Positions 27,297-58,181 of a DNA stretch of 64,000 nt are shown here, one piece after another. Position numbers and translations under genes: made by a program. Under the pieces are notes generated by a model. It saw only the letters and a list, made by a program, of their open reading frames with translations. It searched no databases and had not been told where the DNA came from. This DNA comes from a virus (lineage: Duplodnaviria > Heunggongvirae > Uroviricota > Caudoviricetes). Location of the stretch: the IMG/VR virus record IMGVR_UViG_3300031758_000002; one strand, written 5' to 3'. Position 1 is the stretch's first letter, and the number at the start of each line of letters is the position of its first letter.

Positions 27297-27307
27297 AAAA
27301 TAAAAAA

Positions 27308-27331
27308 ACCCACTTTTAAGGTGGGTTTTAT
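27308..27331 (-). terminator. rho-independent terminator (CCCAC-loop-GTGGG)
   Basis: AAAAAAACCCACTTTTAAGGTGGGTTTTAT, downstream of the gene ending at 27333. Confidence 0.55.
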
Positions 27332-27332
27332 A

Positions 27333-28181
27333 TTAGAGTTGTTCTTCTTTTATTTCCTGTAAGGTTTTAAAGTAATTTACTCTCGTATTGGCTATCTCGG
27401 TATAGTTTGGTGATAACTCAATACCTAACCATCTTCTTCCCAATACTTCAGCGGCAACTAATGTTGTTCCACTACCAGCGAATGGATCTAAAATCACATC
27501 GTTTTTGTAGGATAATATTTTGATCGCTTTAGTTGGGATGTCCATTGAGAACGTCGCCTTGGTGAGTGATTTAGTATCTGCAAAGTAATTCCACTGACCA
27601 AAAACAAGTTCCATAAACTCCTTCTTATCTTGTTCTTCATATACAACTTTCTTTTTTATGGTTCCATCCTCCTGTTCAATTTCAGTAGGTGTCCCTTTCC
27701 ACTGAGGTTCTCCCTTAACCTTTTTAATGTGGTGTTTTTTGTATGCAAGTATTACACACTCCTTTGGATTATAAATATACGGACTTGACGGACTCATCCA
27801 AGATCCCCAAGCAGTTGTTTTACTACGATGAGGTGAATCTTCTTCTAAATCCACGATACCGAAGAAACCAAACCCAATTTGTTTCATTAATTGATACATT
27901 TCAGAAACAAAGAAAATTCTTCCCCCTTTCTTTTGTCTATTGATTTCATATGGAATATTCAACGCGATTCGTCCATCATCTTTCAAAACATTATATGCTT
28001 CAGTTAACCAATTTTTGGCAAATACCAAATACTCCTCAAACTCCACATCATCATCGTGGGTATCATACGCAATCCCGACTCCGTAGGGTGGTGATGTGAC
28101 GATTAAATCCACAGACCCTTCAGGTAATGTTTTCATCACCTCAATACAATCTCCTGTTATTATTTTTCCTGTTTCTATCAT
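27333..28181 (-). CDS. DNA methyltransferase, beta-class N6-adenine/N4-cytosine (pfam01555-like)
   Basis: Motif IV DLIVTSPPYGVG comes first, then motif I ILDPFAGSGTTLVAAEVLGRRWLGIELS. That order defines the beta class. Confidence 0.8.
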   Translation of the reverse strand: MIETGKIITGDCIEVMKTLPEGSVDLIVTSPPYGVGIAYDTHDDDVEFEEYLVFAKNWLTEAYNVLKDDGRIALNIPYEINRQKKGGRIFFVSEMYQLMKQIGFGFFGIVDLEEDSPHRSKTTAWGSWMSPSSPYIYNPKECVILAYKKHHIKKVKGEPQWKGTPTEIEQEDGTIKKKVVYEEQDKKEFMELVFGQWNYFADTKSLTKATFSMDIPTKAIKILSYKNDVILDPFAGSGTTLVAAEVLGRRWLGIELSPNYTEIANTRVNYFKTLQEIKEEQL

Positions 28182-29017
28182 TTTTTCTCCAATGTTTCAA
28201 TGTGGTGTTGCAAATACCACAATGCTTTTTTAAGATCCTGTAATTCTTTATCTAACTCTTTCTTACCCGCTCTTGAGATATACTTCACAGTATTACCAAG
28301 GGAGAATCCTAAGTCCCAAGCATCAATCACCTTGATTGCTTCATATGGGTTTGACTCTCCCCCATAGTGGTTAGGGTGATTTACTTGTTCCTTTTTTTCT
28401 TCCATTTCTTTTTTCTTTTTGTGAGCCCAAAATACTCCATCAATATGATAGGTATTAAATCCTTGCCAGTCAAATGATTCAATTACATTATTAACACCTT
28501 CAGTAGGATCTTTTGAGGACTTATAATCATCCAAATATACAATACCATCATCATTAATAAAATTAATCACATTATTAATATCACCTCTAACGCATTCCTC
28601 AAAGTGGCACCCATCAATCTCAATAAAATCAAATTTTGTTTTTGATGTGTCTAAAACTCTTGGAACAACCTCAAGGGAGTTACCAGGAAATAAACTCAAA
28701 TGTATGTTCCACTTCCTGTAATGCTTGGCAAGTATTGAGTGATTGTTAACAGTACTCTCATATTTACAGTCATCAAATACAAAAACAATTATTGGTTTCC
28801 TATTAAAATCAGGATCTTCATTAATTATTTTCAATAATGTCTCACATATTAAAACCATTGAATGTCCTTCATTGAATCCTATTTCAATAATATTTCTTGG
28901 TTTAATTTGGTATACCAAATCTTGTAGGGTATGAATCCTTTCTGGGTACCAACTAATGTTACCCTCACCCTTACCAAACATCATTCCGGGTAATTTGTTA
29001 AATATATTATTTTCCAT
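28178..29017 (-). CDS. class I SAM-dependent methyltransferase-like domain fused to a C-terminal DUF3310 domain
   Basis: Motif I-like IIEIGFNEGHS and acidic FDFIEIDG / VYLDDY. The C-terminus (HPNHYGG...YEAIKVIDAWDLGFSLGNTVKYISRAGKK...DLKKALWYLQHHI) matches DUF3310 as I remember the family. Confidence 0.5.
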   Translation of the reverse strand: MENNIFNKLPGMMFGKGEGNISWYPERIHTLQDLVYQIKPRNIIEIGFNEGHSMVLICETLLKIINEDPDFNRKPIIVFVFDDCKYESTVNNHSILAKHYRKWNIHLSLFPGNSLEVVPRVLDTSKTKFDFIEIDGCHFEECVRGDINNVINFINDDGIVYLDDYKSSKDPTEGVNNVIESFDWQGFNTYHIDGVFWAHKKKKEMEEKKEQVNHPNHYGGESNPYEAIKVIDAWDLGFSLGNTVKYISRAGKKELDKELQDLKKALWYLQHHIETLEKK

Positions 29018-30206
29018 TTAAATCAAATTTAATTTCTTTTGTAGGGATATTACTTCCATCCATTGTTTTACCATCCAATTCAAATTCTTCATCATTGAAG
29101 TATTCTTTTAATAGTTCATCGGTTGGGATTGTTTTATAATCCATCTTAAGGTTGTCCATATCAAGTTTATAATTCATTTTATGTTTGATGTCGTCAATCT
29201 CTTCAGCGTTTCTTAATGATTCACATATTTGATAAATGATTTTATATGGATCAGCATTAGATGATGGTCGTCTATCTTCAACATATCCCTTCCATTCTTT
29301 TGCGGTTGATTGTGGAACTCTAATTGATGCACCTCTATCTGAAATACCCCAACTAAACTTATTAATTGATTGGGTTTCAAATTTACCCGTCAATCTTAAT
29401 TCATTTGATGAACCATAATTTTCAATATGTTCTTGGTGTCTTGTGGCAAAACTTGAGAAAATTGATTTAAAATGATTTTCACCACCTTCTTCCCTCATTT
29501 TATAATTTGAGAAGTTTGTGTGAAGTCCAGATCCATTCCATTCACCTTTTTGGATTGGTTTTGGGTGTAGTTCAATCCCATAATTATATTTTTCGGACAA
29601 CTTATGTAATAGGTATCTAGACATCCATAAATCATCTCCTGATTTCAATTTACCTTGAGAGAATACTTGATACTCCCATTGTCCAAGTGCAACCTCGGCA
29701 TTTATTCCTGTTATGTTAATCCCATACCTTAAACATAAATTCATATGTTCTTCAACAAATTCTCTACCCGCAACATATTCTCCAACACCACAATAATATT
29801 TACCTTGTGGTTCCAAGTTGTTTTCATCGTGGCCTAAAATACATTTATTTTTTCTATCATAGATAAAGTATTCTTGTTCAAAACCAAACCACAAATCCTC
29901 TTGTTCATTACCAAGTAATGATCTGGTATTTGATTGATGTGGTGTTCCGTCTGAATTCATAACCTCACAAAGAACATACACACTACCAAATTTATCATCC
30001 AAATAATGTCTTACAGGTTTTAAAATACAGTCTGAAGTCCCAGTTTCTGCTTGGTTTGTTGATGATCCGTCAAAGTTCCATTCAGGAAATCTACCCGTTA
30101 TAAATGAATTTTTTATGTCATCGTAATTAACAATTTTTACCTTACTTCTTAAATTTGGTTCCGGCATATATCCGTCTAACCACAGATATTCAAGTTTAAT
30201 CTTCAT
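29007..30206 (-). CDS. glutamine synthetase, type II (eukaryote/GlnII-like)
   Basis: GSII signatures EYLWLDG (YIWIDG), GKYYCGVG (GPYYC), FEQEYF, EWNGSGLHTNFS and ASIRVPQ. 399 aa. Confidence 0.8.
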   Translation of the reverse strand: MKIKLEYLWLDGYMPEPNLRSKVKIVNYDDIKNSFITGRFPEWNFDGSSTNQAETGTSDCILKPVRHYLDDKFGSVYVLCEVMNSDGTPHQSNTRSLLGNEQEDLWFGFEQEYFIYDRKNKCILGHDENNLEPQGKYYCGVGEYVAGREFVEEHMNLCLRYGINITGINAEVALGQWEYQVFSQGKLKSGDDLWMSRYLLHKLSEKYNYGIELHPKPIQKGEWNGSGLHTNFSNYKMREEGGENHFKSIFSSFATRHQEHIENYGSSNELRLTGKFETQSINKFSWGISDRGASIRVPQSTAKEWKGYVEDRRPSSNADPYKIIYQICESLRNAEEIDDIKHKMNYKLDMDNLKMDYKTIPTDELLKEYFNDEEFELDGKTMDGSNIPTKEIKFDLNGK

Positions 30207-30394
30207 TTGTTTTTATTTATATATTTTATGATTTCATCCTCAGTTTTTCCTTCGCAGAACATTTTGAACACTTCATTTGAAAAGTCGTCACTAATAATAA
30301 TTGCATCGGCTGATAGATATCTTGATAGGTTATCAAGATTATTAATAATATTATCTTTTCTGAGTATCCTCTTGTTGAATCCCATTATTTTCAC
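30203..30394 (-). CDS. hypothetical protein (63 aa)
   Basis: ORF, 4-bp overlap with the GS gene. Confidence 0.3.
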   Translation of the reverse strand: MKIMGFNKRILRKDNIINNLDNLSRYLSADAIIISDDFSNEVFKMFCEGKTEDEIIKYINKNK

Positions 30395-30492: not shown

Positions 30493-31284
30493 TTACTTAA
30501 CTTTAATTTGTATCACTTTTTTTTCTTTCCCATACATTTCTTGATTAATATATGAAATCAGTTTTCTTTTGAATAATGGTAGTAATGTTTCATTGATTGG
30601 GAATATATCACTACATTTCATTTCAAACACAGGTAATGATGGTTTTTCTTCATCAGAACTCCATTGAGAAAATGTATTAATTATTTTTGGTATAGTCAAC
30701 TTATCTTTTGGTTCGGAATGAATTAAATTTACAAGTGTTTTTTTCTCAATGGAACCTCTTGATGCTGGTGTTATGTTGTACTCCCAAACATATAAACTAT
30801 TTGTTTTATTCTCATTGTAGTAAAAGTATCCTTTGTTTAACGATAGATTTTTTTTGTTCTTTTTAATTTTAACTTCAATTGTTTCAAACACGACTGACCA
30901 CACGGACTTTGCAACATTGAAGTACTCCATTAGTCTTGGTGCGGAAAATTTTAATATACTAATAAACTCTTGAGTTTCTTCCTGTGTCATGTCAGGAATT
31001 TGTTTGATTTTCAAATCCTTAACAAGGAGTTCATCATCAATCGTATCAAACTTCTTATCAGTATAAATTAATTTTTTATCTTTAATTAGGGTTTGAATAC
31101 TTGCCAAATGCAATGACAACTCTATGAAACCAGGATATAGTTCCATATTATCAAGTTTCTCTCCCATTTTTTGGAAGTAACTTAATAATTTATATTCTTT
31201 GTGTTCTTGATCAATTGGTTTTTCAAATAACCAATCTGTTTCCATTATAAATTCAATTCCTTTATTTTTCTTTTTTCTTGCCAT
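30493..31284 (-). CDS. hypothetical protein (263 aa)
   Basis: ORF. Confidence 0.4.
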   Translation of the reverse strand: MARKKKNKGIEFIMETDWLFEKPIDQEHKEYKLLSYFQKMGEKLDNMELYPGFIELSLHLASIQTLIKDKKLIYTDKKFDTIDDELLVKDLKIKQIPDMTQEETQEFISILKFSAPRLMEYFNVAKSVWSVVFETIEVKIKKNKKNLSLNKGYFYYNENKTNSLYVWEYNITPASRGSIEKKTLVNLIHSEPKDKLTIPKIINTFSQWSSDEEKPSLPVFEMKCSDIFPINETLLPLFKRKLISYINQEMYGKEKKVIQIKVK

Positions 31285-38938: not shown

Positions 38939-39778
38939 TTAATAATTCAGTATAAGTAATTCTTCACCCATATTTTGTTTGGTACCTTTTTTGGCTGCCG
39001 CCGCCTTAGCGAATTCTTTTTTCTCCCAACTATATTGTTCTTTAGGGAACCATTCCGATAACAACGGGAAGTCATAATACGACAAACTAAATTTACCTTC
39101 CATTCCTTTTAATATATTTGCAAGTCTTTCATGATCTTCTCTGTCAAAATCGTGATTTGAATAGTAATTTTCAGTTTTCCAATATGGTGGATCAACATAA
39201 AAATATGTTGTTGGTGAATCATACTTTTTAATGACATCCTCAAAATCCATATTTTCAACATCCGTAATTTTCAAGAAATGTTCTACCCAATCAGGTTTAG
39301 ATAATTTATCTCTAAATGTAAGATACTTTGATTTGTATTTACCTTTCAAGTCAATGAATGAACTTGTCTCAGGTTTAGAACCACTAAAAACCTGTGTAAG
39401 GACATAAGCGTATTTAGCAGCAACTTCATAATTACCAGGTTCTACACTGAAACCTTCACTAAAAATTTCAGCCTGAAACCTGATAAACTGTTCTTTATAA
39501 ATTGGTGGAGTTACTTCTACACCAAATTTCTGACAATCAATTGCGTTAATTGCATTCAATAATTCAGTTGGGTTCTGAATACATTTAAACAGATTGTAAT
39601 TAAGTGGATTAAAGTCGTTATAAACAACTTTCTTTAGGTTTGGGAACTGTTTTAAGTCCATGTTGAAGAAACACCAAAACATCCCTCCGAATGTTTCAAC
39701 ATATGTTTCCATATTATTATCATAGAAAGGGACTATCCACTTTCCAATTTTACTCTTACCTCCGATATAACTTAACAT
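38939..39778 (-). CDS. Dam-like DNA N6-adenine methyltransferase (D12 class)
   Basis: N-terminal SYIGGKSK (Y.GGK) and late YVDPPYW (DPPY). Confidence 0.75.
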   Translation of the reverse strand: MLSYIGGKSKIGKWIVPFYDNNMETYVETFGGMFWCFFNMDLKQFPNLKKVVYNDFNPLNYNLFKCIQNPTELLNAINAIDCQKFGVEVTPPIYKEQFIRFQAEIFSEGFSVEPGNYEVAAKYAYVLTQVFSGSKPETSSFIDLKGKYKSKYLTFRDKLSKPDWVEHFLKITDVENMDFEDVIKKYDSPTTYFYVDPPYWKTENYYSNHDFDREDHERLANILKGMEGKFSLSYYDFPLLSEWFPKEQYSWEKKEFAKAAAAKKGTKQNMGEELLILNY

Positions 39779-40540: not shown

Positions 40541-40717
40541 ATGAAACAAGAAGTAGAACAATCAAAAAAAGAAGCAACACAAGTTACAGGATGTAGTCAA
40601 TGTAAAAAAGGTATGAGTAAAACACAATGGGGATTATTAATATTCTCATTATATATGTTTGGTGCCGGAATTTACGGTACCATCCAAATAATTAAAGATG
40701 TAATTTCTTTATTTTAA
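40541..40717 (+). CDS. small membrane protein (58 aa)
   Basis: Not in the track. MKQEVEQSKKEATQVTGCSQCKKGMSKTQWGLLIFSLYMFGAGIYGTIQIIKDVISLF has one TM helix. Confidence 0.3.
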   Translation: MKQEVEQSKKEATQVTGCSQCKKGMSKTQWGLLIFSLYMFGAGIYGTIQIIKDVISLF

Positions 40718-41643
40718 TCCCTTTCAAATCGGACATGCTGGTTAACCAACAAGTCACCTATCACTTCACCTTTAAACCCTTTTGATTTAACTCTTAAGGG
40801 TTTTGTTGTATCAAATGTCTTTGGGAATCTTAACCTTACCGTACCGTCAGGATGAGGTATTTCAAAATCACTCTTCTTCAAATCATCCAATGTGAAATAA
40901 GCATTATAAATTAAGTGAGGTCCGTACTTTTCAAAATTATTATCAGAAACCAATTTAACTCTAACAACTAAGTTACCATAAACACCGTTTCTAAAATCCC
41001 CAACACCTTGTAATCGGATGAATTGTCCATCATCAATACCATTAGGTAATTTAACTTCAACAGTTTTCATCTCATCTTTAGTCCCACTACCATTACAAAT
41101 ATGACAAGGATTTGTAATAACTCGTCCATGTCCTGAACAAGTGTTACAAGCAACTTGTACCATTTGTATAAACATACCAGACCCCATCTGTCTCACTACA
41201 GAACCTTGTCCATTACATTCGGGACAAATTTTCTTCTCACCCCCACTACCATTACATGGATCACATTTTAATTTCCTACGATATGTGATTTCTTTATTCG
41301 CACCCAAATATGATTCAGTAACTTTTAATTCAGTATCAATAACTAAATCATGTACCACATTTTTTTGTCTACGATTACCAAATGCCTGATTAAACATCTG
41401 TTGGAATATATCGTCACCTCCTCCCATTCCTGCAAATGGGTTCTTTCTTCTCATATCATACTCTTGTCGTTTGTTATCGTCACCAATAGTATCATATGCT
41501 TCAGCAATTTGCTTAAACTTTTCCTCATCACCACCAGCATCAGGGTGATTTTCTTTTGCCAGTTTACGATATACTTTTTTTATCTCATCTTGGGTTGCAG
41601 TTTCAGGAACACCTAATATGTCGTAATAATTCGGAATATTCAT
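40714..41643 (-). CDS. dnaJ: DnaJ (Hsp40) co-chaperone, type I (J domain plus CxxCxGxG zinc-finger repeats)
   Basis: J domain NYYDILGV...AKENHPD (HPD tripeptide). Four CxxCxGxG repeats (CDPCNGSG, CPECNGQG, CNTCSGHG, CHICNGSG). C-terminal substrate-binding domain. Confidence 0.85.
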   Translation of the reverse strand: MNIPNYYDILGVPETATQDEIKKVYRKLAKENHPDAGGDEEKFKQIAEAYDTIGDDNKRQEYDMRRKNPFAGMGGGDDIFQQMFNQAFGNRRQKNVVHDLVIDTELKVTESYLGANKEITYRRKLKCDPCNGSGGEKKICPECNGQGSVVRQMGSGMFIQMVQVACNTCSGHGRVITNPCHICNGSGTKDEMKTVEVKLPNGIDDGQFIRLQGVGDFRNGVYGNLVVRVKLVSDNNFEKYGPHLIYNAYFTLDDLKKSDFEIPHPDGTVRLRFPKTFDTTKPLRVKSKGFKGEVIGDLLVNQHVRFERD

Positions 41644-43355: not shown

Positions 43356-43529
43356 TTACGCAGCTTTTTTAGATTCTAGAATTTCACCTCTTAATTGTTG
43401 TAATAAAGATTTTAATTCTTGGGAAGTCTTTCTTGCTCTAGTTCCCGCACTTTTATTACCACTGTTGAACTTCGTTACATCAACACTAAGTTCCTCTGTA
43501 AGTGCTTTAATTTTTTCTAATGTTTCCAT
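43356..43529 (-). CDS. histone H1-like (Hc1-type) DNA-binding protein, 57 aa
   Basis: Not in the track. METLEKIKALTEELSVDVTKFNSGNKSAGTRARKTSQELKSLLQQLRGEILESKKAA. The GNK(A/S)AGTR(A/V)RK core is characteristic of Bacteroidota/Chlamydia Hc1 proteins. Confidence 0.55.
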   Translation of the reverse strand: METLEKIKALTEELSVDVTKFNSGNKSAGTRARKTSQELKSLLQQLRGEILESKKAA

Positions 43530-50599: not shown

Positions 50600-51400
50600 T
50601 TAGATATAATCAAATAATTCAGAACTCTCATTTCGTAACCTTCTCAAAGCTCTTTCTTTAATCTGTCTTACTCGTTCTTTAGTTAAACCAAAATCACCTC
50701 CAATATCTTCCAAAGTTCTTGGTGTTCCACTAAGTCCAAAATAATCCTCAATAATTACTCGTTCTCTTTCATCTAAAACACTAAGTGTATTGATTAATTT
50801 TTCTTTAAGAATGTCCGCAGTATTAAAAGCCGCATCAGGAGCGTCTGCATCCATATTTGGTATCATATCAAGGAATGTATCTCCCTCATCATTGATATTC
50901 ATATCTAAGTCAATCATTGATGGTAAAGATGAGAATTTATCCGATAGTTTTCCTCCATTATTCTCAATTTCTTTTTTAGCTTTATGAAGTTCCTGAACAA
51001 CATTTACAGGAAGTCTAATTGTTCTCGCATTGTCATTTAAAGACTGAATAATAGATTGTTTAACCCACCAAACGGCATATGAAATAAATCTCAAATTTTT
51101 ACTCCAATCAAAGTTTTTAATTGCTTTCAATAACCCTAAGTTACCCTCAGCAACCAAATCAGGAAAATCCAAACCTTGATTTTGATATTGTTTTGCAACG
51201 GTAATAACAAATCGTAAATTACCTGTTAACAACTCCTGTTCAACTTGTTTTCGTTGTTTGTCAGTTAAAGTATCCGACATCATAAGTTTAGATAATTCTT
51301 TTTCCCTTTCAGGTGTCATAACTTTAATCTTCCTAATATCCTTTAGGTAGTGAGAGATTTCATCCTGATTAATGGGCATTCCTGTTCCTTTTTCCTTCAT
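50600..51400 (-). CDS. sigma-70 family RNA polymerase sigma factor (regions 2-4)
   Basis: Region 2 LRFVITVAKQYQNQGLDFPDLVAEGNLGLLKAIKNFD. Region 2.4/3 RFISYAVWWVKQSI. Region 4 HTH TLEDIGGDFGLTKERVRQIKERALRRLR. Confidence 0.8.
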   Translation of the reverse strand: MKEKGTGMPINQDEISHYLKDIRKIKVMTPEREKELSKLMMSDTLTDKQRKQVEQELLTGNLRFVITVAKQYQNQGLDFPDLVAEGNLGLLKAIKNFDWSKNLRFISYAVWWVKQSIIQSLNDNARTIRLPVNVVQELHKAKKEIENNGGKLSDKFSSLPSMIDLDMNINDEGDTFLDMIPNMDADAPDAAFNTADILKEKLINTLSVLDERERVIIEDYFGLSGTPRTLEDIGGDFGLTKERVRQIKERALRRLRNESSELFDYI

Positions 51401-51973: not shown

Positions 51974-52885
51974 TTAATCCAACAAATTTTTAGATTCTTT
52001 ATTATTTTTTCTTTTCAATAAAGCATCTTCTTTAGATAAAAGGAATTTAACCTTTGGATTAGGTGTTTCATTAGTGTATGGTTCAATATTTTGTATTCTT
52101 AGATTTGATAAATCGACATATTCTTCATTGATGTCAATACCCAAATAATTCCTGTTATTAAGTTTCGCCATCTTCAATGTCGTTCCACTACCACACATAG
52201 GATCTAATACTATATCACCTTCATTACTCCAAGATAGAATATGATCCTCAGCCAATGATTCCGGAAATATTGCAGGATGTTGGAATGCAATGTCGTCTTT
52301 GGATGAGAACCCTTTACCATTATTAACATACCATACATTATACCTTGTACCGAATTCAGATACAACAAACTTGTCAACCTTTTTAAGGTTTCCGTCTTTT
52401 TCTCTTTTTGATGGATCACCAAAATTACTATGTCCCGCCCATCTATTTGGTTTATCTTTTAATAGATTAACCGTTTTTGGTTTCCCTTTTGAAAGGACGA
52501 ACATATATTCAAATACTTGTGAGTATCTACCTGTTTCAGGAAATGGGGCTCCATTCTTATGATAAATCATCGTATCGTACAATGTAAATCCAATCTCCTT
52601 AAATTTAAGTGCTTGTCTGAATGAACTACCAGTTTCTCCACCATTTTTTACTTGATCATTTACCACCCAAATAACAACACCACCCTTCTTGGTTACTCTA
52701 TATAACTCACGAGCCATTTCCACAAATGGGAAACTAAATCCATCTTCAAAGACAACCTCATCCTTAATTTTTCCATTATAAGTTCTTAAGTTATCATACG
52801 GTGGTGATGTTACAGTTAAATCAAATGTATTATCCTCATATCTTTGTAATACTTCAATCGCATTACCTAAAATTACTTCATTCAT
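51974..52885 (-). CDS. DNA methyltransferase, beta-class N6-adenine/N4-cytosine
   Basis: Motif IV DLTVTSPPYDN precedes motif I IVLDPMCGSGTTLKMAKLNNRNYLGIDIN. Confidence 0.8.
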   Translation of the reverse strand: MNEVILGNAIEVLQRYEDNTFDLTVTSPPYDNLRTYNGKIKDEVVFEDGFSFPFVEMARELYRVTKKGGVVIWVVNDQVKNGGETGSSFRQALKFKEIGFTLYDTMIYHKNGAPFPETGRYSQVFEYMFVLSKGKPKTVNLLKDKPNRWAGHSNFGDPSKREKDGNLKKVDKFVVSEFGTRYNVWYVNNGKGFSSKDDIAFQHPAIFPESLAEDHILSWSNEGDIVLDPMCGSGTTLKMAKLNNRNYLGIDINEEYVDLSNLRIQNIEPYTNETPNPKVKFLLSKEDALLKRKNNKESKNLLD

Positions 52886-53623: not shown

Positions 53624-55999
53624 TTATTGATATACCTTTGAAATATTATCTTCTTTTCTAATCTTAACGATGGTGTCCGCCCACTGATTAACCATTGGGT
53701 TGTGTGTAATGACAAATATTTTCTCAAAATATTCTTTAATTTTAATAAAGAATTCTGAAACCATTTCCAAATTGTCGTTAGATATTTTTCCGAACACCTC
53801 ATCAAAGACAATTATATTTGGTTTTGGTAACGAACAAATCTTACTTAATACTGATCTCAATGCCAATGATGCAATTGTTTTTTCATAACCTGAACCTGAT
53901 GTCATTAATTTCTCAACACCAGTACCGTTGTCAATCATCATAAACTCAACTTCATTCTTATCGTTAATTCTAACTTCAAGTTTGAAGTATGAACTATCCT
54001 CCATTAGTCTTTGAAGTTCTGAGTTTATTATCGGCATCATAGTTTTCATTATGATTTTAGATATCCCATTTTTACCGAACGCCTCCAAATATATTTTATA
54101 TAATTTTTCTTTTTCAGATTCCTCCTGAATTTTGATTATTGTATTTAAATTATTTTTAATCTTATCTTCCAACGAGGTGATTTGGTAAGTATTATTATTG
54201 ATTAGTGTTTGTTTTTGAGTCTTTTCTCTTTCAAGTTCCTCAATTCTAATACCTGCTTTTAACAACATACCCTCAATCTTCTCATTTTCCTTAATTTTTT
54301 CAATCAATTCGTTATACCTTCCTAATTTTTGTTTTAAATTTTCAATTTTAAGATTATAACTCTCAATACTCAAATCATATTTTTCTTTAATAAGTTTGTT
54401 TTTCTCATACTCATCAAACTCTTTTTTAAGTTGTACAAATGCCTGTTCTTTGCCTGATAAAACCGTCATTAACCCCTCTTTTTCCTCTTTTTGCCTATTA
54501 TAACCATCAAGTTCGGCAATTTTAGATTGGGTGATTGATGCCATCATTAAATCAATACCACAGTGTTCGCATTTAATTCCACCATCAACGGAACTCTTTA
54601 ATTCCTCAATTGATTTAATCTTACTCTCAACTTGGATTTTTTCCTTGAATACTTCGTTATATTCTTCTTTAACCTTATCGTGTTGATCCTCATAATAAAA
54701 AGAAGATGGTTCAACTACCTGTAATTCATTTGACTTCTTAATGATGTCACCTTTTTGATACTCAAATGAGTTAATCTCATCTTGTACCTTATCAGGGTTT
54801 GTTTGAGCAATATCATTATCTATATCAGTATGTTTCTTTTTTAACATATCGTCACGATAATCCTTACCCTTTGTTAAGTTTACTTCAACTTGATTAAGTT
54901 CGTCTTTCAATGTATCAATACTAGTTTTAAAATTTTCAATATCAGTTTCATATTGTTCATTATCACTTTTTAATTGCTCAGTATTATAAACATTAGATAA
55001 CATTGATTTAGAAAAATCAGAATAAATTTGTTTTGCAGATTCTTCTTTTTTCTTTAAAAACTCCAACCCCATAAACCTTGAGAGTACCTGTCCTCTTGCC
55101 GTTGGTTTTGATTCCAAAAGGTCCTCAAGATTTGTTGCGGTGGTTAAAATTGTCATTAAGAAATCATCTTTAGAACCGATTGATGTTTTAATGAATTGTT
55201 CGGTTTCTCGTCTTTGTTCACCAGTAAAGTTTTGTAAACTACCGTCGGAAAGTTTTTTGAAGAAGTCTAATTCGGTTTTAACATTCCATTCACCTTTCTT
55301 AGACATTTTTCTTTCGATGTTTCTAACAATAATATATTCTTCACCATCAATAATAATTTCACCCTTTACAACTACCGAGTTTTTATCGGTAAATCGATTA
55401 AAGATTTCTTCCGCCTTTGATGTTTTTGTTGTCTCATTAAAGAATAGGAACATTAATAAATCCACCGATAATACTGTCTTACCACCAAAGTTAGGTGGAT
55501 TAGATTCAACTACTGTAATACCATTACATTTATCAAAATCAATACGCTGATTATCACCATATGATAAGAAATTAGAGAATTCAATATTTTTGATATACCA
55601 TTTCTTAAATGATGAGGTTTCATCTTCTGATTCAGACATTTTATTCTCAACCATTCTATTGATTGACATAACCTCATCAATACGATTTTCATACCCCTTA
55701 GACTTAAGAAATTGTTTCAACAAATCAGTTTGATAATTTGTGTCCATAATGTTTACAGACACATCAACACTTTGCATAGTATCTTCCTGAATGTTTTTAA
55801 CTTTTGTGATAACATTCACATTAGTGGAACCGTACTTCTTTTGGAAGTAATGTTTAACACTCTTAATCTTATCTTGTGTGAAATTCTCTGAAATGTCTTC
55901 CCATACTACTTGAATAGGTGGGTTTTCAAATTTAGAAAACTCTAAATCTTTTATCATAATTTTATAATTAAATGTTTTTGGTGGATTAAACAGATCCAT
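53624..55999 (-). CDS. SbcC/Rad50-like recombination ATPase (T4 gp46-like) with about 130-aa N-terminal extension
   Basis: N-terminal strand IKNIEFSNFLSYG and degenerate P-loop NFGGKT. Central long coiled coils. CEHCG hook-like CxxC. C-terminal signature SGYEKTIASLALRS and Walker B IIVFDEV. Confidence 0.65.
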   Translation of the reverse strand: MDLFNPPKTFNYKIMIKDLEFSKFENPPIQVVWEDISENFTQDKIKSVKHYFQKKYGSTNVNVITKVKNIQEDTMQSVDVSVNIMDTNYQTDLLKQFLKSKGYENRIDEVMSINRMVENKMSESEDETSSFKKWYIKNIEFSNFLSYGDNQRIDFDKCNGITVVESNPPNFGGKTVLSVDLLMFLFFNETTKTSKAEEIFNRFTDKNSVVVKGEIIIDGEEYIIVRNIERKMSKKGEWNVKTELDFFKKLSDGSLQNFTGEQRRETEQFIKTSIGSKDDFLMTILTTATNLEDLLESKPTARGQVLSRFMGLEFLKKKEESAKQIYSDFSKSMLSNVYNTEQLKSDNEQYETDIENFKTSIDTLKDELNQVEVNLTKGKDYRDDMLKKKHTDIDNDIAQTNPDKVQDEINSFEYQKGDIIKKSNELQVVEPSSFYYEDQHDKVKEEYNEVFKEKIQVESKIKSIEELKSSVDGGIKCEHCGIDLMMASITQSKIAELDGYNRQKEEKEGLMTVLSGKEQAFVQLKKEFDEYEKNKLIKEKYDLSIESYNLKIENLKQKLGRYNELIEKIKENEKIEGMLLKAGIRIEELEREKTQKQTLINNNTYQITSLEDKIKNNLNTIIKIQEESEKEKLYKIYLEAFGKNGISKIIMKTMMPIINSELQRLMEDSSYFKLEVRINDKNEVEFMMIDNGTGVEKLMTSGSGYEKTIASLALRSVLSKICSLPKPNIIVFDEVFGKISNDNLEMVSEFFIKIKEYFEKIFVITHNPMVNQWADTIVKIRKEDNISKVYQ

Positions 56000-57380: not shown

Positions 57381-58181
57381 TTAAAGATTTTTGAGTAATT
57401 CGGTTCCATTTTCAATATCCTCAAATGATTTAATTTCAAACTTTAAAAATGGCTTGGGGTTGAATAAGTCCGTATAGTTATATTCTTTTGTTTCTAAATT
57501 ATAAACTCCATATCCATGTCTACCAATACTTTCACCAATATTTTGTTGTATTGGGCTACCTATCATATAACCTTTACCCGTTTTAAAGTTAAATTCTTGT
57601 CTTTTATGGATATCACCACATAATACAACATCAAGTCCATTGAACTTTTCAACATCATACGCCTCCTCTCCAAAGTCAAATCCCAAATCGGTTTTCATTC
57701 CTTGAATTGGTCCGTGAAACAATCCCACTTTTATTCCTGTTGCAACATTCAAATCAGGAGGAATATTCCCTTGATATTGCGAGTACACACACCAACTAAT
57801 ATTCTCATCTTCATACACACCTCTATCTCTATAATAGAAAATGTTTTTATTATTTAACGAATTAATGATTGGTGTAAGTGCGTCTAATCTTTCAACATTG
57901 TTTACAAGGAAATCGTGATTACCAGGTATAATGATTGTTGGTGCAATAAATGAACATTCCAAAAGCAACCACCGAACCATTTCAATAAGTTCGGGAGTCA
58001 TTTGATTTTTAGAGTGAACCAAATCACCAGTGAATACAATTCTATCAGGATTGATTTCTCTCCATTGGTTAATCGCATCTTCCATTATTGACTTATACAA
58101 ATCATGATCTTTATAAAGACGAATGTGTAAATCAGAAAAGTGTATTATTTTTTTTATCATTCTGTGTCTTTTGTACCGCAA
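57381..58181 (-). CDS. Mre11/SbcD-like metallophosphoesterase nuclease (T4 gp47-like)
   Basis: MPP motifs IIHFSDLHI, FTGDLVH, IIPGNHDF, GLFHGPIQG and LCGDIH. Confidence 0.7.
   Translation of the reverse strand: MRYKRHRMIKKIIHFSDLHIRLYKDHDLYKSIMEDAINQWREINPDRIVFTGDLVHSKNQMTPELIEMVRWLLLECSFIAPTIIIPGNHDFLVNNVERLDALTPIINSLNNKNIFYYRDRGVYEDENISWCVYSQYQGNIPPDLNVATGIKVGLFHGPIQGMKTDLGFDFGEEAYDVEKFNGLDVVLCGDIHKRQEFNFKTGKGYMIGSPIQQNIGESIGRHGYGVYNLETKEYNYTDLFNPKPFLKFEIKSFEDIENGTELLKNL

What the first reader, a model, noticed from the sequence alone, without database searches (positions are those of the whole stretch)
29007..30206. Phage-encoded type II glutamine synthetase
The full set of GSII signatures is present (YLWLDG, GKYYCGVG, NGSGLHTNFS, ASIRVPQ), and local GC is higher than the flanking DNA. 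A glutamine synthetase in a phage is an unusual auxiliary metabolic gene, possibly boosting glutamine and nucleotide supply. Alternatively it may be a diverged ATP-dependent amide ligase used for nucleic-acid or small-molecule modification, given that it is translationally coupled to two methyltransferase-like genes.
Basis: partly seen in the sequence, partly recalled or inferred. Interest (0 to 1): 0.7.

Follow-up and report, generated by a model that had tools for sequence, protein, structure and literature searches.

The report
Known jumbo-phage glutamine synthetase gene
This is an intact type II glutamine synthetase gene in a large freshwater bacteriophage, a nitrogen-metabolism gene already reported in such phages, and it shows no dependence on the neighbouring methyltransferase genes.

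Summary
The 399-aa ORF at 29007-30206 (-) and all four quoted motifs are real. It is a full-length type II glutamine synthetase (GSII). Both Pfam domains match, the best solved relatives are all GSII, and the AlphaFold model matches GSII folds. All 23 metal, ATP, glutamate and ammonium-site residues checked are present here and nearly invariant in 121 family members. The claimed GC elevation is not there (0.321 against 0.319 +/- 0.030 for 44 ORFs).

The window is a jumbo-phage fragment. The identical protein sits on contigs up to 210 kb. The gene content fits the published freshwater "moraphages", whose GS genes have already been reported, as have 248 GS genes in huge phages.

The protein belongs to a phage-only clade (bootstrap 100). 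Its nearest cellular relatives are Bacteroidota GlnII, at 49-57% identity.

The gene overlaps its downstream neighbours, but relatives argue against any dependence. Some keep the DUF3310 and methyltransferase genes with no GS. Others keep GS without them. The amide-ligase and DNA-modification reading is therefore not supported.

One feature I did not find described is a phage-specific C-terminal tail of about 70 residues, predicted disordered.

Verdict: a real gene of an already known kind, with low to moderate interest.

The parts
29217..30206 (-). Catalytic core of the glutamine synthetase (residues 1-330): beta-grasp N-domain plus catalytic C-domain
   Evidence: Pfam Gln-synt_N and Gln-synt_C. 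NCBIfam GlnII aligned 1-330 of 333. All 23 active-site residues checked are conserved. The AF2 core has pLDDT above 90 and the best Foldseek hit is 4bax, TM 0.88 normalised to the target. dN/dS is about 0.17.
29007..29216 (-). Phage-clade-specific C-terminal tail (residues 331-399 plus stop), acidic, with conserved short motifs (KHKMNY..., ELLKEY, PTKEIKFDLNGK)
   Evidence: The tail is absent from cellular GlnII. Residues after the EDRRP motif have a median of 86 in 121 phage-family proteins and 22 in 80 cellular ones. An ELLxEY-like motif is found in 108/121 against 0/80 (alignment). pLDDT is 40-65 for residues 345-399. dN/dS is about 0.54.
30203..30394 (-). Small conserved ORF (63 aa; the conserved 60-aa form starts at 30385) whose stop overlaps the GS start codon (ATGA). 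Context only, not a dedicated GS partner.
   Evidence: ORF and junction. It is conserved upstream of GS in most related loci. It is also found without GS in 17 of 79 loci. No Pfam or PHROG family matched.
28178..29017 (-). Methyltransf_24 plus DUF3310 fusion protein, overlapping the GS stop by 11 nt. Context only.
   Evidence: Pfam PF13578 1.5e-09 and PF11753 3e-13. The DUF3310 part follows GS in 83 of 86 related loci. The methyltransferase domain is present in only about 9 of them.
27333..28181 (-). N6/N4 DNA methyltransferase, overlapping the previous gene by 4 nt. Context only.
   Evidence: Pfam PF01555 2e-35, phrog_67 3e-44. It occurs in relatives that lack GS, for example L226.
27305..27329 (-). 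Terminator-like hairpin (9-bp stem followed by a T-run) directly after the methyltransferase gene. Probable end of the transcription unit that contains GS.
   Evidence: This is a consensus match only, and 4 such sites were found against 2.1 expected.
30493..31284 (-). Conserved 263-aa protein of unknown function that marks the upstream edge of the syntenic slot
   Evidence: It is found upstream of GS, or of the empty slot, in nearly all related loci. No family hit.

Best explanation
The gene encodes a catalytically competent type II glutamine synthetase carried as an accessory metabolic gene by a freshwater jumbo phage whose gene content fits the 'moraphage' lineage. An ancestor of this phage group most probably acquired it once, from a bacterial GlnII whose closest living relatives are in Bacteroidota.

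Shown here: the full GSII architecture and fold; every metal, ATP, glutamate and ammonium ligand checked; purifying selection on the core; phage context; and a phage-only clade.

Inferred: the enzyme makes glutamine from glutamate, ammonium and ATP through gamma-glutamyl phosphate, as other GSII enzymes do. It is probably transcribed together with the surrounding thioredoxin, glutaredoxin, NUDIX, kinase-like, nuclease and DNA methyltransferase genes. The glutamine would feed the host's amidotransferases for purine, pyrimidine, NAD and amino-sugar synthesis. That would sustain replication of a genome of more than 200 kb when host nitrogen assimilation is limiting or shut down.

The overlap with the downstream genes reflects tight phage gene packing, not a shared pathway.
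For: Identity. Pfam Gln-synt_N and Gln-synt_C match. NCBIfam GlnII scores 333 bits over the full profile. The sixteen best PDB sequence matches are all GSII, from E 3e-89 to 2e-70. The AF2 model has pLDDT 85.8, and its best Foldseek matches are Streptomyces, maize, yeast and human GSII.

Active site. The equivalents of human D63, S66, W130, E134, E136, Y162, G192, E196, E203, N248, G249, H253, N255, S257, R262, R299, E305, R319, R324, Y336, E338, R340 and R341 are all present. They are invariant in 121 family members, apart from one sequence each at E196 and R299. The human reference sequence was verified against 8dnu.

Selection. Core dN/dS is about 0.17 over 34 pairs.

Phage context. The identical protein occurs on 23 contigs of up to 210,524 bp. 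The window carries SbcC-like, RNA ligase, sigma-70, Hc1-like, DnaJ, DUF3310 and three DNA methyltransferase genes, and no tRNA genes. At least 582 IMG/VR stretches encode relatives.

Phylogeny. The phage family is monophyletic (bootstrap 100). It is separate from eukaryotic and actinobacterial GSII. Its nearest cellular sequences, at 49-57% identity, are mostly Bacteroidota.

Accessory status. Close relatives have an unrelated 127-aa ORF, or nothing, in the same slot. This agrees with 9 of 25 moraphages encoding GS (PMC12619734).

Composition. GC and GC3 match the phage genome, which indicates long residence.
Against: No activity, expression or metabolite data exist for any member of this clade.

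The score is below NCBIfam's GlnII equivalog cut-off (333 against 500). Chromosomal Bacteroidota GlnII controls also fall below it (361-413), so the cut-off does not discriminate here.

The sister relation to the Bacteroidota-dominated clade has weak support (bootstrap 17-30) in a distance tree. The donor is therefore not resolved.

No glutamine-dependent amidotransferase gene appears among the window's Pfam-annotated genes, so the use of the product by host enzymes is assumed.

The conserved, phage-specific C-terminal tail is unexplained by a simple supply role.
Confidence: 0.75

Rival explanations
1. The protein is a diverged ATP-dependent amide ligase that works with the two downstream methyltransferase-like proteins to build a nucleic-acid or small-molecule modification.
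For: GS, the Methyltransf_24-DUF3310 gene and the N6/N4 methyltransferase overlap by 11 and 4 nt, and a terminator-like hairpin follows the last gene. DUF3310 follows GS in 83 of 86 related viral loci. GS-fold enzymes that ligate amines do exist (PMC5403932).
Against: Characterised amine-using GS-like enzymes (PauA7, GlnA3) have lost the ammonium-site residues D50, E327 and Y179 in Salmonella GSI numbering (PMC5403932). The equivalents here (D46, E277, Y138) are present and invariant in 121 family members.

The genes also occur apart. L180-L193 carry the Methyltransf_24-DUF3310 gene with an unrelated 127-aa ORF in place of GS. L226, L230 and L250 carry DUF3310 and the N6/N4 methyltransferase with no GS. 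L012, L175 and L176 carry GS with no DUF3310 or N6/N4 methyltransferase detected within the downstream sequence held. The sister contig of L012 has a UvrC-like gene upstream and a thymidylate-synthase-like gene downstream.

The methyltransferase domain of the fusion is present in only about 9 of 86 loci.
Confidence: 0.04
2. The enzyme is active, but its main value to the phage is regulatory or interaction-based rather than bulk supply. It could shift the host's glutamine/2-oxoglutarate nitrogen signal. Or its phage-specific C-terminal tail could dock on, sequester or escape a host or phage partner.
For: A tail of about 40 to 140 residues with conserved short motifs defines the phage clade and is absent from 80 cellular GlnII. 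It is predicted disordered yet remains below neutrality (dN/dS about 0.54). From general knowledge, small-protein and protein-protein control of GS is known in other systems, such as the cyanobacterial inactivating factors and B. subtilis GS with TnrA/GlnR.
Against: No partner was identified. The small upstream ORF is not GS-specific: 17 of 79 loci lack GS, and some GS loci lack the small ORF. The tail motif does not recur in other proteins of the window. Tail length is very variable, from 350 to 457 aa total protein length. Full conservation of the catalytic site shows that catalysis itself is selected.
Confidence: 0.12
3. The gene is not viral. It would be cellular DNA (a Bacteroidota or eukaryote-like GSII) mis-assembled into a contig, or a decaying pseudo-enzyme.
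For: GSII is mostly a cellular enzyme. No nucleotide match exists in the reference phage collection.
Against: The identical protein lies in the same phage gene order on many independent assemblies from JGI and ENA. Its composition equals that of the phage. It forms a clade of its own with bootstrap 100. The core is under purifying selection and every catalytic residue checked is kept.
Confidence: 0.02

Closest known systems
Glutamine synthetase genes reported in huge or jumbo phages: 'moraphages' (PMC12619734) and the Huge Phage Genome Collection (bioRxiv 10.1101/2025.02.27.640493)
   Same: Both are a phage-borne GS treated as an auxiliary metabolic gene in freshwater jumbo phages of 200-307 kb. 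Those phages carry Hc1-like and DnaJ genes and have predicted Bacteroidota hosts. The window carries Hc1-like, DnaJ and GS genes, and the same protein lies on a 210-kb contig. GS is accessory in that lineage (9 of 25 genomes), which matches the slot polymorphism seen here.
   Different: In the passages I searched, those papers list the gene and speculate on nitrogen metabolism. I did not find a description there of the GS type, the active-site conservation, the phage-only clade or the C-terminal tail. Membership of this window in the moraphage lineage was not tested with marker-gene trees.
Bacterial GlnII of Bacteroidota (Saprospiraceae, Chitinophagaceae, Flavobacteriaceae, Cyclobacteriaceae and others)
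   Same: These are the nearest cellular relatives, at 49-57% identity over residues 1-335. They share the domain order and score similarly on the NCBIfam GlnII model (361-413 bits against 333).
   Different: The phage proteins form a separate clade (bootstrap 100) and carry a tail that none of the 80 cellular proteins has.
Structurally characterised GSII: Streptomyces coelicolor (4bax), maize GS1a (2d3a), yeast Gln1 (3fky), human GLUL (2qc8, 8dnu)
   Same: Same fold (TM 0.78-0.88 normalised to the target, rmsd 2.1-2.8 A) and identical catalytic residues. Identity to the human enzyme is 40%.
   Different: The phage protein has no N-terminal extension. It has a C-terminal disordered extension, lies in a different clade and comes from a phage genome. 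Decamer formation was not tested.
GS genes of other huge phages (LR756501/LR756503, LR756502, LR745206)
   Same: These are GSII-type genes in phage genomes of 635-735 kb, at 44-54% identity to this protein.
   Different: They fall elsewhere in the tree. LR756501 sits inside a Chitinophagaceae/Saprospiraceae group, and LR756502 with LR745206 in another clade. Phages have therefore acquired GSII at least three times. None of them has the tail.
GS-like gamma-glutamyl-amine ligases (PauA7, GlnA3, PuuA)
   Same: They share the GS fold and the ATP-dependent gamma-glutamyl phosphate chemistry. There is a weak NCBIfam hit to gamma-glutamylputrescine synthetase (32 bits).
   Different: Those enzymes are GSI-like and lack the ammonium-site Asp, the flap Glu and the Tyr (PMC5403932). 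This protein keeps all three.

Membership tests
Type II glutamine synthetase (GSII / GlnII) | Two-domain architecture: N-terminal beta-grasp (PF03951) followed by the catalytic domain (PF00120), with a core of about 330-370 aa | tested here: met
   Both Pfam domains score above their gathering cut-offs (34.3 against 33.4, and 68.4 against 24). The GlnII profile is covered 1-327 of 333.
Type II glutamine synthetase (GSII / GlnII) | Closest sequence and fold relatives are GSII, not GSI or GSIII | tested here: met
   PDB sequence search: GSII entries score E 3e-89 to 2e-70, and GSI entries 1e-8 or weaker. Every Foldseek hit shown is a GSII. The GSI and GSIII NCBIfam models score 56 and 40 bits against 333 for GlnII.
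Type II glutamine synthetase (GSII / GlnII) | Metal ligands (human E134, E136, E196, E203, H253, E338) | tested here: met
   The window protein has E110, E112, E171, E178, H229 and E310. These are invariant or nearly so in 121 family members.
Type II glutamine synthetase (GSII / GlnII) | ATP and glutamate ligands (human W130, G192, N248, G249, N255, S257, R262, R299, R319, R324, Y336, R340) | tested here: met
   All are present and conserved. The assignment of each residue to a role is from my own knowledge of the human and maize GS structures. The human reference sequence was verified.
Type II glutamine synthetase (GSII / GlnII) | Ammonium pocket and flap (human D63, S66, Y162, E305) | tested here: met
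   The window protein has D46, S49, Y138 and E277, invariant in 121 of 121 members.
Type II glutamine synthetase (GSII / GlnII) | Score above the NCBIfam NF041605 equivalog cut-off (500 bits) | tested here: not met
   The score is 333 bits. Chromosomal GlnII controls from Flavobacterium, Cellulophaga and Saprospiraceae score only 361-413, so the cut-off excludes the whole Bacteroidota-type branch and is not informative here.
Type II glutamine synthetase (GSII / GlnII) | Decameric assembly (two stacked pentamers) with active sites at subunit interfaces | not testable with these tools
   Only a monomer was modelled.
Type II glutamine synthetase (GSII / GlnII) | Glutamate + NH4+ + ATP -> glutamine activity | not testable with these tools
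   This needs an enzyme assay or complementation of a glnA mutant.
GS-like gamma-glutamyl-amine ligases (PauA7 / GlnA3 / PuuA type) | Replacement of the ammonium-site Asp (D50), the flap Glu (E327) and Tyr (Y179) by small or non-polar residues (PMC5403932) | tested here: not met
   The equivalents D46, E277 and Y138 are retained.
Viral auxiliary metabolic gene | A cellular-type metabolic gene embedded among viral genes on viral contigs, and not universal in the lineage | tested here: met
   Phage genes lie on both sides in many independent contigs. The gene is absent from close relatives that have the same backbone.
'Moraphage' jumbo-phage lineage (PMC12619734) | Freshwater phages of 200-307 kb with Hc1-like and DnaJ/DnaK genes, and without multisubunit RNA polymerase or tRNA synthetases. 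Defined by TerL, MCP and PolB phylogeny. | tested here: inconclusive
   Hc1-like (43356-43529), DnaJ (40714-41643) and GS genes are present, and the same protein lies on a 210-kb contig. No marker gene lies in the window and no marker tree was made.

The most novel reading that the evidence does not exclude
The phage clade's GSII has acquired a conserved, intrinsically disordered C-terminal tail. It contains ELLxEY-type and, in many members, EIKF(D/N)-type short motifs. The tail could change how the enzyme is controlled or where it acts. It might make it insensitive to host feedback or turnover, or tether it to a host or phage partner. On this reading the phage enzyme would be a functionally distinct GS variant and not a plain copy of the host gene.
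Probability: 0.15. Interest if true: 0.5.

Novelty: already known. Interest (0 to 1): 0.25.

Why it matters
Glutamine is the amide donor for purine, pyrimidine, NAD and amino-sugar synthesis. A phage-borne glutamine synthetase is therefore a plausible way for very large phages to secure nitrogen flow for replication in nutrient-poor fresh water. The family is abundant: hundreds of viral contigs and thousands of metagenome proteins. If it is active, it contributes to nitrogen assimilation in infected Bacteroidota-type cells.

For this scan the useful results are mostly negative. The gene is real and looks fully functional. It is a published kind of auxiliary gene. The GC anomaly is not there. 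The proposed link to DNA or small-molecule modification is contradicted by comparative data.

The only open lead is the phage-specific C-terminal tail. No biochemical work exists on any phage GS of this clade.

Tried and rejected
(1) GC anomaly as a sign of recent transfer. Rejected: gene GC and GC3 equal the phage background.

(2) Functional coupling of GS with the downstream methyltransferase genes. Rejected on co-occurrence.

(3) The small upstream ORF as a dedicated GS partner or regulator. Rejected: 17 of 79 loci have it without GS, some GS loci lack it, and it has no family hit.

(4) The tail as a targeting peptide shared with other phage proteins. A low-stringency tblastn of the tail against the window gave only weak matches that look low-complexity.

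(5) Failure of the NCBIfam equivalog cut-off as a sign of a different function. Rejected: chromosomal Bacteroidota GlnII controls also fail it.

(6) Giant-virus or cellular origin of the window. Rejected by the PHROG and Pfam content, the sigma-70 gene and the synteny on viral contigs.

(7) Nucleotide search of the reference phage collection. No match.

(8) Sigma-70 promoter scan. 38 sites against 36.4 expected by chance, so uninformative. From my own knowledge, Bacteroidota-type promoters differ from the sigma-70 consensus used by the scan.

(9) Resolving the donor lineage. The neighbour-joining tree gives only weak support (bootstrap 17-30) for the position of the phage clade relative to the Bacteroidota-dominated clade.
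Full report
OBSERVATION. The four quoted motifs start at residues 7, 135, 224 and 293. Pfam finds the glutamine synthetase beta-grasp domain (residues 5-84) and the catalytic domain, both above their gathering scores. NCBIfam's GlnII model aligns residues 1-330 to 1-327 of its 333 positions (E 1.8e-99). The GSI and GSIII models score far lower. The sixteen best matches among solved structures are all type II enzymes: yeast Gln1 at 3.4e-89, Streptomyces GSII at 2e-84, then plant, insect and mammalian GS.

The claim of raised GC does not hold. The gene is 0.321 GC. The window is 0.307, and 44 ORFs of 150 aa or more average 0.319 +/- 0.030. GC3 is 0.22, inside the range of the neighbouring genes. 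The gene overlaps are real. The stop of a small upstream ORF overlaps the GS start (ATGA). The GS stop overlaps the start of the next gene by 11 nt, and that gene overlaps the next by 4 nt.

WHAT THE WINDOW IS. The window has about 31% GC, no tRNA genes, and genes mostly on one strand. It has no nucleotide match in the reference phage collection. Its genes are phage-like:
- an SbcC-like nuclease subunit and an RNA ligase;
- DUF3310, three DNA methyltransferases, thioredoxin and glutaredoxin;
- NUDIX, metallophosphoesterases, a transglycosylase and a sigma-70-type factor;
- a DnaJ homologue and a 57-aa Hc1-like histone H1 homologue.

The identical GS protein occurs on 23 contigs from independent assemblies, the largest 210,524 bp, always in the same gene order. 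This profile fits the 'moraphages' of PMC12619734: freshwater phages of 200-307 kb with Hc1-like and DnaJ/DnaK genes, no RNA polymerase or tRNA synthetases, predicted Bacteroidota hosts, and GS in 9 of 25 genomes. I did not test lineage membership with marker genes, because none lies in the window.

IS IT A WORKING GLUTAMINE SYNTHETASE? I aligned the protein and its 120 best metagenome relatives with human GLUL. All 23 positions checked are conserved in the window protein:
- metal ligands E134, E136, E196, E203, H253, E338;
- ATP and glutamate ligands W130, G192, N248, G249, N255, S257, R262, R299, R319, R324, Y336, R340, R341;
- ammonium pocket and flap D63, S66, Y162, E305.

They are invariant in the family, apart from one sequence each at two positions. 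An AlphaFold2 model built on a 50-sequence alignment has mean pLDDT 85.8, with the core above 90. Its best Foldseek matches are Streptomyces, maize, yeast and human GSII (TM 0.78-0.88 normalised to the target). Nei-Gojobori dN/dS over 34 pairs of phage genes is about 0.17 for the core.

The score falls below NCBIfam's equivalog cut-off (333 against 500). That is not informative, because chromosomal GlnII of Flavobacterium, Cellulophaga and a Saprospiraceae genome also score only 361-413.

ORIGIN AND DISTRIBUTION. The word-indexed search returned 8000 proteins, its cap. The best 120 are 64-98% identical, mostly 372-457 aa, and several lie on contigs of 150-318 kb. JGI already names them glutamine synthetase. 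The exhaustive representative search found 667 clusters at E <= 1e-30. IMG/VR holds at least 582 viral stretches that encode relatives.

In one-genome-per-species bacterial and archaeal assemblies, the best 80 matches are 49-57% identical. They are overwhelmingly Bacteroidota (Saprospiraceae, Chitinophagaceae, Flavobacteriaceae, Cyclobacteriaceae, Cytophagales), with some Planctomycetota, Verrucomicrobiota, Gammaproteobacteria and marine group II archaea.

I built a neighbour-joining tree from 242 sequences and 304 columns with 100 bootstraps. It places the window protein in a phage-only clade (bootstrap 100), next to the Bacteroidota-dominated clade with only weak support (17-30). The clade is well separated from the eukaryotic (human, yeast) and actinobacterial GSII groups.

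GS genes of other huge phages sit elsewhere. LR756501 falls inside a Chitinophagaceae/Saprospiraceae group, and LR756502 with LR745206 fall in another clade. Phages have therefore taken up GSII at least three times. Host-like composition and a long branch point to an old acquisition in this lineage.

THE NEIGHBOURS AND THE 'AMIDE LIGASE' ALTERNATIVE. In 86 related viral loci the usual order is:
- a 250-263-aa protein;
- a 60-aa ORF;
- GS;
- a DUF3310 protein;
- variable small inserts;
- an N6/N4 DNA methyltransferase.

DUF3310 follows GS in 83 of the 86 loci. The Methyltransf_24 domain that is fused to DUF3310 in this window appears in only about 9. A terminator-like hairpin directly follows the methyltransferase gene. 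Co-transcription is therefore plausible, but co-function is not.

Searching IMG/VR with the small ORF found 79 loci, and 17 of them lack GS. In L180-L193 an unrelated 127-aa ORF occupies the GS position ahead of the Methyltransf_24-DUF3310 gene, although the flanking proteins are 75-88% identical to those of the window. In L226, L230 and L250 the small ORF is followed directly by DUF3310 and then the N6/N4 methyltransferase.

The converse also occurs. In the lineage of L012, L175 and L176 (contigs of 274-291 kb), neither DUF3310 nor the methyltransferase was detected in the sequence held downstream of GS. That was about 4 kb for L175 and L176, and 0.7 kb for L012. The sister contig of L012 has a UvrC-like gene upstream and a thymidylate-synthase-like gene downstream.

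GS is thus an accessory gene in a conserved slot, and the methyltransferases and DUF3310 do not depend on it. There is also a residue-level argument. GS-like enzymes that ligate amines instead of ammonium (PauA7, GlnA3) have lost the ammonium-site Asp, the flap Glu and the Tyr (PMC5403932). All three are kept here. I put this alternative at about 4%.

WHAT IS LEFT UNEXPLAINED. The phage clade has a C-terminal extension that cellular GlnII lacks. Residues after the EDRRP motif have a median of 86 in 121 phage proteins and 22 in 80 cellular ones. An ELLxEY-like motif occurs in 108 of 121 phage proteins and in none of the 80 cellular ones. An EIKF(D/N)-type module occurs in 53 of 121.

In the model, residues 345-399 have pLDDT 40-65, apart from a short helix at 362-374. 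Tail dN/dS is about 0.54, and tail length varies widely. The motif does not recur in other proteins of the window. It may be a linker or docking element, or it may have little function. This is the only feature I did not find described in the papers I read.

MECHANISM, SHOWN AND INFERRED. Shown: an intact GSII active site and fold, purifying selection, phage residence and accessory distribution.

Inferred from established GS enzymology: ATP phosphorylates the gamma-carboxylate of glutamate. Ammonium, deprotonated at the Asp/flap-Glu pocket, attacks the acyl phosphate to give glutamine.

Inferred from context: the gene is expressed with the nucleotide and DNA-metabolism genes around it. It would supply amide nitrogen to host amidotransferases for nucleotide synthesis during replication of a large genome. 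I put about 0.85 on the protein being an active GS, and about 0.55 on supply being its main benefit.

PRIOR KNOWLEDGE AND VERDICT. Phage GS genes are already in the literature:
- 248 GS genes in 247 huge phages, mostly freshwater and marine (bioRxiv 10.1101/2025.02.27.640493);
- nine moraphages with GS (PMC12619734);
- glnA among jumbo-phage auxiliary genes (PMC13037316);
- glnA of large phages clustering with prokaryotic homologues (PMC13172472).

The finding is a correct identification of an already known kind of gene. One supporting argument (GC) is wrong, and the alternative reading can be set aside. Interest is low to moderate.

Noticed in passing
window 29007-30206 compared with L180 3180-3563 and L226 3170-3394: The GS position is a polymorphic cargo slot in an otherwise conserved backbone. 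Close relatives carry an unrelated 127-aa ORF there (L180-L193), or nothing (L226, L230, L250).
   Followed up: yes
window 43356-43529 (-): A 57-aa ORF sits at the position where a near-identical contig (L016) has a gene with a Pfam Hc1 hit (chlamydial histone H1-like). It is a hallmark reported for moraphages.
   Followed up: partly
window 40714-41643 (-) and 50600-51400 (-): The phage encodes a full DnaJ (J domain, Cys-rich domain and C-terminal domain) and its own sigma-70-type factor (regions 2 and 4).
   Followed up: no
window 27333-28181, 38939-39778, 51974-52885 (all -): Three separate DNA adenine or N4/N6 methyltransferase genes lie in 25 kb: two N6_N4 type and one D12/Dam class. There is also the Methyltransf_24 domain at 28178-29017. 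This suggests heavy anti-restriction methylation.
   Followed up: no
window 28178-29017 (-), residues 196-279: The DUF3310 domain is 59-94% identical (mostly 79-94%) across phages whose GS is only 66-81% identical, so it seems more conserved than GS. These are best local tblastn segments. It occurs alone (74-93 aa) or fused to a methyltransferase domain. PHROGs label its relatives 'nucleotide kinase', but I found no experimental function in the papers searched.
   Followed up: partly
window 30203-30394 (-): A conserved 60-aa ORF (MGFNKRxL...YLDADA...DEFS...EEEIIxYIN) is almost always joined to the next gene by an ATGA overlap, whichever gene that is. It has no family hit.
   Followed up: partly
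L012 and its sister contig (GCA_041447075.1 record), about 1.4 kb downstream of GS: In a related phage lineage, GS sits between a UvrC-like GIY-YIG nuclease gene and a 372-aa thymidylate-synthase-family gene. That protein is long for a ThyA and could be a pyrimidine hydroxymethylase.
   Followed up: no
window 53624-55999 (-) and 57381-58181 (-): A 791-aa SbcC/Rad50-like ORF (phrog_77). On the near-identical contig L016 a 259-aa Metallophos gene lies just beyond it, which I matched by position to the 266-aa ORF at 57381-58181. Together they could form a phage SbcCD/gp46-gp47-type nuclease pair.
   Followed up: no
L177 (LR756501), L178 (LR756502), L179 (LR745206): The GS genes of the 635-735 kb huge phages belong to different GSII clades from this one. 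This indicates at least three independent captures of GlnII by phages.
   Followed up: partly
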